A stretch of 26,426 nucleotides of DNA, from contig DASWIR010000113.1 in assembly GCA_036397575.1 (NCBI GenBank), forward strand, positions 1 through 26,426, written 5' to 3'. This DNA comes from Alteraurantiacibacter sp. GTDB lineage: Bacteria; Pseudomonadota; Alphaproteobacteria; Sphingomonadales; Sphingomonadaceae. A model generated the notes under the pieces. The model was not told the DNA's origin. It did no database searches and saw only the letters and a program-made list of their open reading frames with translations. The stretch's first letter is position 1; each line of letters opens with the position of its first letter. Position numbers and translations under genes: made by a program. This document shows, piece after piece, positions 19,716 through 20,579 of this stretch.

Positions 19716-20579
19716 ATGTCGGGCAGCGTTCTGCGTCTGGGTAACATTCAGTTCGACGAGGCGGCCGGAACGGTCACGGTCGAGGGCGAAGAAGCGATCG
19801 AACTCGATCGCAGCTGCCGCGCCATCCTGTCGTTGCTGCTCAGCCAGATCGACGAGCCTATAAGCAAGGACCGGCTTCTCGAGGCGGGCTGGCCTGGCCG
19901 CGTGGTCCATGAAAATTCGCTCGCCAAGGCCATTGCGCGCTTGCGTCACGCGCTGGGCAATGAAGGCAAGCGGATCGAAATGGTCTACGGGCAGGGCTAT
20001 CGACTGACGGGCGACGCTGATCCGCCAGGACCGCCTGTTTATCCGCCTATGCGTCGACGTCCGACCCGCTATCTCGTCATATCCGTCGCAGCCGGCTTTG
20101 CCCTGGTCGCGTCTATCGTCCTTGCGACGATTTTCTGGGCCGGCAATAGCTCAGCTGACGGCCAAAGCGCGTTGAAAATAGGCGAGGCGCCCGACGTGAT
20201 CGGCCGCGTCCTGTGGGTCGACGATCACCCCGGGAACAATGCAGAGGAAAGGCGTTTCCTCGAAGGGCGGCAGATCGCCGTCTACGAAGTTACGTCGAGC
20301 GACGATGCGATGAAGTTGCTCTCGATGTACAAATATGACGCCGTGATTTCCGACATGGGGCGGAACGGGAACCCGCTGGCCGGTCTCGAACTGATCAGGG
20401 AAATGCGCGCGCGGAAAAATTATACGCCGTTCGTCCTCTATACCATCCTGCCGTCCAAGGCTCAGCGCGATCTTCTCGCCGAATATGGTGGCCAGGGTGT
20501 CGCGGTAACCCCGGAAGGGCTGTATAGTTTCCTCCTTCCCGGGCTCGATCGGCGATCCGCCCAGCGCGCGGCCGATTGA
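19716..20579 (+). CDS. ToxR/CadC-like winged-helix protein with a TM segment and a C-terminal receiver domain
   Basis: wHTH (SKDRLLEAGWPG..V.ENSL...I.RLR.AL...I..VYG.GYRL), hydrophobic LVISVAAGFALVASIVLATIFW, receiver motifs LWVDD.P.NN and YDAVISDMGR. Confidence 0.8.
   Translation: MSGSVLRLGNIQFDEAAGTVTVEGEEAIELDRSCRAILSLLLSQIDEPISKDRLLEAGWPGRVVHENSLAKAIARLRHALGNEGKRIEMVYGQGYRLTGDADPPGPPVYPPMRRRPTRYLVISVAAGFALVASIVLATIFWAGNSSADGQSALKIGEAPDVIGRVLWVDDHPGNNAEERRFLEGRQIAVYEVTSSDDAMKLLSMYKYDAVISDMGRNGNPLAGLELIREMRARKNYTPFVLYTILPSKAQRDLLAEYGGQGVAVTPEGLYSFLLPGLDRRSAQRAAD

What the first reader, a model, noticed from the sequence alone, without database searches (positions are those of the whole stretch)
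19716..20579. Inverted response-regulator architecture with the receiver domain beyond a TM helix
Seen: wHTH, then RRRPTR, a 22-residue hydrophobic segment, and a receiver domain keeping DD, the phospho-Asp (ISD) and Thr, but with no obvious conserved Lys. Established: OmpR-type regulators are receiver-then-wHTH and cytoplasmic. Inference from the positive-inside rule: the receiver fold is periplasmic, out of reach of kinases, and may be repurposed for ligand or partner sensing. No histidine kinase is nearby.
Basis: partly seen in the sequence, partly recalled or inferred. Interest (0 to 1): 0.65.

Follow-up and report, generated by a model that had tools for sequence, protein, structure and literature searches.

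The report
Membrane regulator with outside-facing receiver domain
This gene encodes a ToxR/CadC-style membrane-anchored DNA-binding protein whose sensor half, predicted to face the periplasm, is a well-conserved receiver (CheY-like) domain that has lost its key lysine; if that location holds, a phosphorylation module is being reused outside the cytoplasm as a sensor.

Summary
ORF 19716-20579 (287 aa) has an OmpR-type winged helix (residues 5-97), RRRPTR, one strongly hydrophobic helix (119-143), and a complete (beta-alpha)5 receiver fold (163-286). It keeps D169/D170, D213 and T243, but has Thr265 where the receiver Lys sits.

It belongs to a rare alphaproteobacterial family: 447 sequence clusters, but only 1 of 300 sampled genomes of its order. 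All 118 aligned members keep the wHTH-TM-REC order. The acidic triad is invariant, and Lys is present in only 15%.

The charge bias around the helix puts the N-terminus inside in 101 of 118 members. Membrane-anchored relatives that lack the wHTH show the opposite bias. No histidine kinase lies nearby in any of 10 loci.

Every locus carries a ToxR-box-like direct repeat, TGAAA-N4/5-TGAA, beside the regulator. The neighbouring gene usually encodes an autotransporter, RTX or other secreted protein.

Best reading: a ToxR-like transmembrane regulator whose periplasmic pseudo-receiver senses without phosphorylation, possibly a divalent cation. Topology and ligand are predictions, not measurements.

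A first-reader note elsewhere in this scan reports the same architecture in another genome. I rate it a new variant of a known kind, moderately high interest.

The parts
19716..20579 (+). Whole gene, 287 aa: wHTH, single TM helix, receiver-fold domain
19728..20006 (+). OmpR/PhoB/ToxR-type winged helix-turn-helix, residues 5-97 (Pfam Trans_reg_C 26-97); predicted cytoplasmic
   Evidence: Pfam E 3.9e-12. The model matches the PhoB effector domain at TM-score about 0.8.
20007..20069 (+). Pro-rich disordered linker ending in RRRPTR (residues 113-118), the positive flank on the cytoplasmic side
   Evidence: pLDDT below 50 for residues 103-119. Four K/R in the N-terminal flank. The family mean is 3.79 K+R.
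20070..20144 (+). Single predicted transmembrane helix, residues 119-143
   Evidence: 19-residue Kyte-Doolittle mean 2.47. Helix at 122-143 in the model. Present in 115 of 118 family members.
20145..20201 (+). Juxtamembrane linker with the family motif G-E-(P/A)-(A/P)-D (E157 invariant)
20202..20573 (+). Receiver (CheY-like) fold, residues 163-286; predicted periplasmic. D169/D170 are nt 20220-20225, D213 is 20352-20354, T243 is 20442-20444, and T265 (at the Lys position) is 20508-20510.
20629..22467 (+). Adjacent paralogue, 612 aa: wHTH, TM helix (about 138-156), TPR_12/TPR_10 repeats. Its wHTH is 58% identical to this gene's, and the recognition-helix region is identical. It starts 49 bp after this gene ends, so the two are probably co-transcribed.
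22497..22570 (-). Candidate operator: TGAAAATTATGAAT (22497-22510, minus strand) plus further TTTCA half-sites and a GCAAAGA element. It starts 30 bp after the paralogue's stop codon and lies upstream of the first secreted-protein gene.

Best explanation
The gene encodes a ToxR/CadC-type single-pass transmembrane transcription regulator. Shown by sequence, fold prediction and comparison: it has an N-terminal OmpR-type wHTH, one hydrophobic helix, and a C-terminal domain with a complete receiver fold. This arrangement is conserved in a rare alphaproteobacterial family. Inferred from the positive-inside rule and from the wHTH having to reach DNA: the wHTH is cytoplasmic and the receiver domain is periplasmic. 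There it has no access to ATP, histidine kinases or acyl phosphates, and it lacks the receiver Lys. It would therefore act as a phosphorylation-independent pseudo-receiver. The invariant residues are D169, D170, D213, N174, N175, S212, R216, T243 and S247 on the active-site loops, and S247, Q250, G258, G259, Q260, L269 and Y270 along alpha4-beta5-alpha5. They suggest a conserved acidic pocket coupled to the face that canonical OmpR-family receivers use to dimerise. Proposed mechanism (inference): occupancy of the pocket changes dimerisation or partner binding of the periplasmic domain. That change sets how two wHTH heads sit on the tandem TGAAA-N4/5-TGAA repeat in the promoter of the adjacent gene. 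My preferred ligand guess is a divalent cation such as Mg2+ or Ca2+, because the Asp triad is the receiver metal site. The adjacent gene usually encodes an autotransporter-like, RTX or other secreted protein. In this window the wHTH-TM-TPR paralogue has the same recognition helix, so it probably shares the operator as a heterodimer partner or a competitor.
For: Domains and fold. Family-wide architecture: 447 clusters, and all 120 listed carry PF00486 and/or PF00072 at about 270-315 aa. Residue conservation: DD and D in 118 of 118, T/S243 in 118 of 118, Lys in only 18 of 118. Transmembrane helix and charge bias across 118 members, with the opposite bias in the anchor-only relatives as a control. 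The REC domains of all 49 wHTH-bearing representatives fall in one clade with 98% local support. No HisKA on the contig and no kinase among the neighbours in 10 loci. Operator: 13 matches to TGAAA-N4/5-TGAA[AT] in 149.8 kb of 10 loci against 0.2 expected from shuffles; 12 of them lie within about 120 bp of the regulator gene or gene pair, with at least one in every locus. Neighbours: an autotransporter (L008), a PATR-repeat protein (L009), an RTX protein (L002), and divergent homologous proteins of about 600-640 aa that look like outer-membrane proteins (L004, L007, L010).
Against: There is no experimental topology. DeepTMHMM or an equivalent was not available; I used hydropathy, charge bias and the AlphaFold helix. 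The closest relatives of this REC subtype outside the family sit in cytoplasmic contexts: nSTAND1 NTPase, WD40, TPR, GAF and EAD11-trypsin proteins, and short N-out/C-in anchored proteins. The pocket motifs WVDDxPxNN and SDMxR are shared with those relatives, so the pocket's function may have evolved for a cytoplasmic ligand. Metal binding is a guess from general receiver chemistry. The operator is assigned by association only, and in this window it could belong to the TPR paralogue instead. Fifteen percent of members do have Lys at the canonical position.
Confidence: 0.68

Rival explanations
1. The receiver domain is periplasmic but does not sense a small ligand. It serves only as a folded dimerisation or partner-binding module, for example docking onto the TPR domain of the paralogue or onto a secreted neighbour, and the acidic residues are kept for fold stability or for that interface.
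For: The alpha4-beta5-alpha5 region is strongly conserved. A TPR paralogue is adjacent here and in Sphingopyxis. ToxR-like proteins often work through periplasmic partners; this last point is general knowledge, and the papers on it were listed but not read.
Against: The TPR paralogue is missing from 8 of 10 loci, and no ToxS-like small partner is conserved. Invariance of all three Asp plus N174, N175, S212 and R216 on the pocket loops is more than a packing role needs.
Confidence: 0.17
2. The hydrophobic segment does not span the membrane, or both domains end up in the cytoplasm. The protein would then be a domain-swapped OmpR-type response regulator phosphorylated on D213 by an unlinked kinase or by acetyl phosphate.
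For: The DD, D and T residues are intact. The genome has at least 7 HisKA kinases elsewhere. Relatives of the REC subtype are cytoplasmic.
Against: The Kyte-Doolittle mean of 2.47 over 19 residues is far above typical soluble-protein helices. The segment is conserved in hydrophobicity only, and it is flanked by disordered linkers and by an Arg cluster on one side. The Lys needed for phosphotransfer is absent in 85% of members. The beta5-alpha5 loop is 3 residues shorter than in canonical receivers. No kinase is linked in 10 loci.
Confidence: 0.1
3. It is part of a conflict or immunity-type system. The kinase-independent receiver domain would work as a nucleotide-responsive switch or effector, as proposed for receiver domains in STAND and vWA-MoxR ternary systems.
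For: Sequence kinship of the REC to domains in nSTAND1, EAD11-trypsin, WD40 and TPR giants. Kinase-independent receivers are described in such systems (PMC8195603, PMC7159879, PMC7824862). Mobile-element-like genes lie upstream here and in L001.
Against: The wHTH-TM-REC receivers form their own clade. Several loci are in housekeeping surroundings next to guaA. A conserved operator and adjacent surface-protein genes fit an ordinary regulator. A nucleotide signal could not reach a periplasmic domain. Pfam cREC_REC was not matched.
Confidence: 0.05

Closest known systems
ToxR / CadC / TcpP-type transmembrane transcription regulators (ToxR-like receptors, TTRs)
   Same: N-terminal OmpR-type wHTH, a disordered linker, one TM helix and a C-terminal extracytoplasmic domain. 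No kinase. A direct-repeat operator of the TNAAA-N5-TNAAA kind; the ToxR consensus is from my own knowledge of Goss et al. 2013, which appears in the reference list of PMC10269533. Control of envelope or surface proteins.
   Different: The sensor domain is a receiver fold, not the ToxR alpha/beta domain or the CadC two-subdomain sensor. There are no periplasmic cysteines (0 in the REC part of all 118 members) and no conserved ToxS-like partner. The TTR census (PMC10269533) reports Response_reg in 9.2% of TTRs but discusses it as hybrid kinase-containing proteins, not as a periplasmic domain.
OmpR/PhoB-family two-component response regulators
   Same: The same two domains: Pfam PF00072 and PF00486, the PhoP/KdpE-like receiver fold and the PhoB-like effector fold. 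The acidic triad and Thr are present.
   Different: The domain order is reversed and a TM helix lies between the domains. Lys is replaced by Thr. The beta5-alpha5 loop is 3 residues shorter and the beta3-alpha3 loop has a 2-residue insertion. There is no cognate kinase. The Pfam score is only 41 bits against 50-110 for most of the genome's ordinary receivers.
Histidine-kinase-independent receiver domains of STAND / vWA-MoxR ternary conflict systems, and cREC (Kaur et al. 2020, 2021; Iyer et al. 2021)
   Same: The nearest sequence relatives of this REC share WVDDxPxNN, SDMxR and the shortened beta5-alpha5 loop. They occur in nSTAND1, EAD11-trypsin, WD40, GAF and TPR proteins without kinases.
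   Different: Those domains are cytoplasmic, often tandem, and part of giant multidomain proteins. Here the domain follows a wHTH and a TM helix and forms a separate clade. Pfam cREC_REC (PF20274) is not matched.
Pseudo-receivers (receiver folds that signal without phosphorylation; from my own knowledge, not tested here)
   Same: A receiver fold that lacks part of the catalytic quintet and is used as an interaction or sensing module.
   Different: Known examples are cytoplasmic. This one keeps the complete Asp triad and is predicted to be outside the cytoplasm.

Membership tests
Receiver domain superfamily (Pfam PF00072 Response_reg) | Profile score above the curated cut-off | tested here: met
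   39.2-41.2 bits against a cut-off of 30.2, but only profile positions 1-86 are matched.
Receiver domain superfamily (Pfam PF00072 Response_reg) | (beta-alpha)5 CheY-like fold | tested here: met
   AlphaFold2 model with pLDDT above 90 over residues 163-286. Foldseek target TM-score 0.83-0.85 to PhoP, KdpE and PmrA receivers.
Receiver domain superfamily (Pfam PF00072 Response_reg) | Catalytic quintet: DD, phospho-Asp, Thr/Ser, Lys | tested here: not met
   D169, D170, D213 and T243 are present and invariant (T/S at 243). The Lys position is T265, and Lys occurs in only 18 of 118 relatives.
OmpR/PhoB-family response regulator | N-terminal receiver followed by C-terminal wHTH in a soluble cytoplasmic protein | tested here: not met
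   The order is wHTH, TM, REC, with a hydrophobic helix at 119-143.
OmpR/PhoB-family response regulator | Cognate histidine kinase, usually adjacent | tested here: not met
   No HisKA on the contig. No kinase among the neighbours in 10 loci.
OmpR/PhoB-family response regulator | Phosphorylation of the conserved Asp | not testable with these tools
   Needs Phos-tag or radiolabelling with acetyl phosphate or a kinase.
ToxR/CadC-like transmembrane transcription regulator | N-terminal OmpR-type wHTH | tested here: met
   Trans_reg_C E 3.9e-12. Best NCBIfam alignments are to the DNA-binding ends of PhoB and RppA and to the HilA/EilA heads.
ToxR/CadC-like transmembrane transcription regulator | A single TM helix after the wHTH, with N-in topology | tested here: inconclusive
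   The prediction is strong: Kyte-Doolittle 2.47, K+R 3.79 against 1.76 across 118 members, and a control class with the reverse bias. There is no experimental topology and no dedicated topology predictor was run.
ToxR/CadC-like transmembrane transcription regulator | Binds a direct-repeat operator at target promoters | tested here: inconclusive
   A conserved TGAAA-N4/5-TGAA repeat lies beside the gene in 10 of 10 loci, against 0.2 matches expected by chance. Binding itself was not tested.
Kinase-independent REC of conflict systems / cREC | Match to Pfam cREC_REC (PF20274), or linkage to NAD+/ADP-ribose or STAND components | tested here: not met
   PF20274 is not among the Pfam hits at E up to 1. 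No such neighbours were seen. Only sequence kinship of the REC to STAND-linked receivers was found.

The most novel reading that the evidence does not exclude
A receiver (CheY-like) domain works outside the cytoplasm. In this family the two-component phospho-acceptor fold has been moved to the periplasm of a ToxR-like regulator. There its intact Asp-triad pocket binds a divalent cation or another periplasmic ligand, and it gates alpha4-beta5-alpha5 dimerisation without phosphorylation. This drives the cytoplasmic wHTH heads onto a tandem TGAAA repeat that controls an adjacent adhesin, autotransporter or secreted-protein gene. It would be the first extracytoplasmic receiver domain, and a natural example of the receiver switch being driven by ligand instead of phosphate.
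Probability: 0.45. Interest if true: 0.75.

Novelty: new variant of a known kind. Interest (0 to 1): 0.62.

Why it matters
Receiver domains are among the commonest signalling modules in bacteria and are treated as strictly cytoplasmic phospho-acceptors. A conserved family that places an almost intact receiver on the far side of the membrane would show that the fold's conformational switch can be driven by something other than phosphorylation. It would add a new sensor type to ToxR-like one-component regulators. It would also offer a compact, engineerable transmembrane sensor made of about 290 residues with a defined operator. The predicted operator and the adjacent surface-protein genes make the system directly testable with a reporter.

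Tried and rejected
1. The top hits of the sequence search against solved structures were designer PPR proteins (E down to 8e-14). These are an artefact of summing many weak repeat matches to one 40-residue stretch. The real hits are receivers (RpfC, PorX) at E about 5e-4.

2. I asked whether the large downstream proteins are a conserved target. The 576+ aa protein of the window shows no similarity to the 590-aa protein of L001 or to the 614-aa protein of L007. The theme is only "secreted or surface protein", not one family. The homology that does exist is among the divergent 600-630 aa proteins of L004, L007 and L010.

3. My first operator pattern had the wrong spacing and found almost nothing. 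The corrected N4/5 pattern was used.

4. I tried to count the architecture in the supplement of the TTR census. The phrase search cannot cross the comma and the files are truncated, so I obtained no count.

5. Literature searches for a periplasmic or extracytoplasmic receiver domain found nothing relevant. The library holds open-access papers only, so this is weak evidence of novelty.

6. A few short relatives in the same clade (P0160, P0172, P0174) begin with a hydrophobic N-terminus and no wHTH. I could not tell whether they are truncated gene calls or real anchor-only forms, so I drew no conclusion from them.

7. I did not use the second structure job.

Full report
**What is there.**
The ORF at 19716-20579 (+) encodes 287 residues. 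A GAGGGGG ribosome-binding site sits 8-10 nt before the ATG.
- Pfam finds Trans_reg_C at residues 26-97 (E 3.9e-12).
- Pfam finds Response_reg at 165-250 (E 8.6e-10, 39.2 bits against a cut-off of 30.2). It covers only profile positions 1-84 of 111.
- Between the two lie a Pro-rich stretch ending in RRRPTR (113-118) and the only strongly hydrophobic segment of the protein. Its best 19-residue Kyte-Doolittle mean is 2.47, at residues 121-139.

AlphaFold2 run on a 118-sequence alignment gives mean pLDDT 87. The model shows:
- a wHTH at 5-97;
- a disordered linker at 103-119;
- one long helix at 122-143;
- a second short low-confidence linker;
- a complete (beta-alpha)5 domain at 163-286, with pLDDT above 90.

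Foldseek matches the C-terminal domain to the receiver domains of PhoP, KdpE, PmrA and PorX, at target TM-score 0.83-0.85 and rmsd about 2.1 A over 120 residues. It matches the N-terminal domain to the PhoB effector domain.

**Residue mapping.**
I aligned the domain with four ordinary receivers from the same genome.

| Canonical receiver position | Residue here |
|---|---|
| Acidic pair | D169/D170 |
| Phospho-accepting Asp | D213 |
| Thr | T243 |
| Lys | T265 |
| Pro after the Lys | P266 |

The domain also has a 3-residue deletion after that Pro and a 2-residue insertion in the beta3-alpha3 loop. In a six-frame search of the genome its Pfam score of 41 bits is the third lowest of 23 receiver matches, where most ordinary receivers score 50-110.

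**It is a family, not a one-off.**
- A search of 5.8 billion protein clusters found 447 relatives. All 120 listed carry PF00486 and/or PF00072 and are about 270-315 aa long.
- Named sources are Sphingopyxis, Sphingomonas gilva, Allosphingosinicella, Erythrobacter, Altererythrobacter and Parvularcula.
- In 118 aligned members, D169, D170 and D213 are invariant and position 243 is T (112) or S (6).
- The Lys position is T 87, K 18, E 6, A 3, R 3, S 1.
- Also invariant or nearly so are P172, N174, N175, S212, M214, R216, Y242, S247, Q250, G258, G259, Q260, L269, Y270, and a juxtamembrane G-E-P-A-D motif.
- Most of these lie on the loops that form the receiver active site or along alpha4-beta5-alpha5. 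That is the face OmpR-family receivers use to dimerise (this last point is established knowledge, not tested here).
- The family is rare. Only 1 of 300 sampled species genomes of the same order has it at E <= 1e-15.

**Topology.**
- The hydrophobic helix reaches a Kyte-Doolittle mean of at least 1.6 in 115 of 118 members. It always lies between the wHTH and the REC and is not conserved in sequence.
- Its 15-residue flanks carry a mean of 3.79 K+R on the wHTH side and 1.76 on the REC side. The N side is higher in 101 members, equal in 14 and lower in 3.
- There is no Cys in the REC part of any member.
- A useful control comes from the nearest relatives of this REC that lack a wHTH. These are about 230-aa proteins with a short acidic N-terminus, one TM helix, a linker and the REC. 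They show the reverse bias, 0.76 against 2.51 K+R, which predicts a cytoplasmic REC there.
- The positive-inside rule, plus the need for the wHTH to reach DNA, places the REC of this family in the periplasm. This is a prediction; no topology experiment exists.

**Where the domain came from.**
- A full HMMER scan of 1.84 billion representatives with the REC part alone gave only 2575 hits at E <= 1e-3. This is a distinct receiver subtype.
- Of the 149 nearest representatives, about 50 are wHTH-TM-REC, 48 are the short anchored form, 31 are short without a TM (some of them fragments), and 20 are long multidomain proteins.
- The long ones include nSTAND1 NTPase-REC, ParA/TPR-REC, WD40, GAF and TPR giants with tandem RECs, and an EAD11-trypsin protein.
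- These relatives share WVDDxPxNN, SDMxR and the shortened beta5-alpha5 loop, and they also lack the Lys.
- Aravind and colleagues have noted receiver domains that occur without histidine kinases in such conflict systems, and proposed kinase-independent roles for them (PMC8195603, PMC7159879, PMC7824862).
- On a FastTree of 147 REC segments rooted on canonical receivers, all 49 wHTH-bearing sequences fall in one clade with 98% local support. Eight short sequences, probably truncated, fall with them.
- This fits a single recruitment of a kinase-independent cytoplasmic REC subtype into a ToxR-like frame.

**Surroundings and a candidate operator.**
- No HisKA match lies on the contig, and none of the larger ORFs in the window is a kinase. 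No kinase is adjacent in nine other loci.
- The next gene in the window (20629-22467) encodes a paralogous wHTH-TM-TPR protein. Its wHTH is 58% identical, and the recognition-helix region is identical.
- At the DNA level that region is 55/56 identical, against 73% over the surrounding 213 nt.
- This gene pair recurs in Sphingopyxis sp. 113P3 but not in the other eight loci.
- More general is a large secreted or outer-membrane protein next to the regulator:
  - an autotransporter in L008;
  - a PATR-repeat protein in L009;
  - an RTX protein in L002;
  - divergently transcribed, mutually homologous proteins of about 600-640 aa with outer-membrane-protein-like C-terminal halves in L004, L007 and L010, and probably L011.
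- In the window and in L001 the next genes encode small signal-peptide proteins.
- Comparing the intergenic regions revealed a shared AT-rich element, gTCTTTCC-N4-5-TTCTGAAAA(A)TTATGAAA.
- The core TGAAA-N4/5-TGAA[AT] occurs 13 times in 149.8 kb of the ten loci, against 0.2 expected from shuffles (maximum 2). Twelve of the 13 lie within about 120 bp of the regulator or regulator pair, with at least one in every locus.
- Its orientation is constant relative to the neighbouring non-regulator gene. In several loci it lies about 50-90 bp upstream of that gene's start.
- In the window it is at 22497-22510 on the minus strand, followed by more TTTCA half-sites up to about 22570.
- A tandem repeat with a 9-10 bp period is what OmpR/ToxR-type wHTH proteins bind. 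It matches the ToxR consensus TNAAA-N5-TNAAA, which I cite from memory of Goss et al. 2013.
- This is association, not binding. It does argue that the wHTH is a working DNA-binding head, which in turn supports the inferred topology.

**How it most likely works.**
The protein is a ToxR/CadC-like one-component transmembrane regulator. The periplasmic receiver fold cannot be phosphorylated in the usual way: there are no phosphodonors or kinases there, and the Lys is missing. Yet its Asp-triad pocket and its alpha4-beta5-alpha5 face are under strong constraint.
- I propose that occupancy of the pocket changes dimerisation or partner binding of the periplasmic domain. That would set the arrangement of two wHTH heads on the tandem repeat and so control the adjacent surface or secreted-protein gene.
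- A divalent cation is my preferred ligand guess, because the triad is the receiver's Mg2+ site. One of the Foldseek matches is a Ca2+-bound KdpE receiver structure.
- In this window the TPR paralogue probably shares the operator.
- The steps from pocket occupancy onward are inference.

**Rivals.**
- The periplasmic domain is only a scaffold or partner-binding module (0.17).
- The hydrophobic segment does not span the membrane, and the protein is a permuted, phosphorylatable response regulator (0.10).
- It is a conflict-system component that uses the REC as a nucleotide-responsive switch (0.05).
The evidence for and against each is given in the Rival explanations section.

**Novelty and verdict.**
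- Searches of the open-access library found no description of a periplasmic or extracytoplasmic receiver domain.
- The census of transmembrane transcription regulators counts Response_reg in 9.2% of them, but treats it as part of hybrid kinase proteins (PMC10269533).
- Public annotation calls these proteins "winged helix-turn-helix domain-containing protein" or "DNA-binding response OmpR family regulator".
- This scan holds a first-reader note of the same architecture in another genome (e1-5198140).
- I rate it a new variant of a known kind: a ToxR-like regulator with a receiver-fold sensor. Interest is about 0.6, limited by the lack of any experimental topology or ligand.

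Noticed in passing
window 22497-22570 (minus strand); L001 10772-10785; L002 7373-7418; L004 7923-7937; L007 11052-11066; L008 5935-5949; L009 5988-6002; L010 4918-4932; L011 4919-4933; L012 5847-5861: A conserved ToxR-box-like direct repeat, TGAAA-N4/5-TGAA[AT], usually preceded by TCTTTCC, lies beside every wHTH-TM-REC gene examined. There are 13 matches in 150 kb against 0.2 expected. Its orientation is fixed relative to the neighbouring non-regulator gene.
   Followed up: yes
window 19878-19933 vs 20803-20858: The two paralogous regulators are 55/56 identical at the DNA level over the recognition-helix region, against 73% over the surrounding 213 nt. 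This suggests gene conversion or very strong constraint.
   Followed up: partly
window 20629-22467: A paralogous wHTH-TM-TPR_12/TPR_10 protein of 612 aa, whose TPR domain is also predicted to be extracytoplasmic. The pair recurs in Sphingopyxis sp. 113P3 (L001 8001-10741), where a wHTH-Pkinase-TPR gene (L001 3443-6169) also lies nearby.
   Followed up: partly
window 22519-26426: A run of co-oriented genes for proteins with signal peptides and no Pfam match, in a region of lower GC (0.56-0.58 against about 0.63). They are the likely regulon of the two regulators.
   Followed up: no
window 15565-17601: Mobile-element-like genes lie upstream on the minus strand: an N6/N4 DNA methylase, a ParB_N protein, and a weak MazE/HTH protein.
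   Followed up: no
L004 5893-7779, L007 11138-12979, L010 3015-4814, probably L011 2926-4851: A family of 600-640 aa proteins with no Pfam match, transcribed divergently from the regulator. Their Gly/Ser-rich C-terminal halves look like outer-membrane beta-barrels (pairwise E 3e-34 and 7e-27).
   Followed up: partly
proteins P0187, P0190, P0199, P0206, P0217 and about 40 more: An uncharacterised family of about 230-aa proteins: a short acidic N-terminus, a WP-containing TM helix, a linker, and the same Lys-less REC subtype, predicted N-out/C-in. The same REC subtype is fused to nSTAND1, EAD11-trypsin, WD40 and GAF giants.
   Followed up: partly
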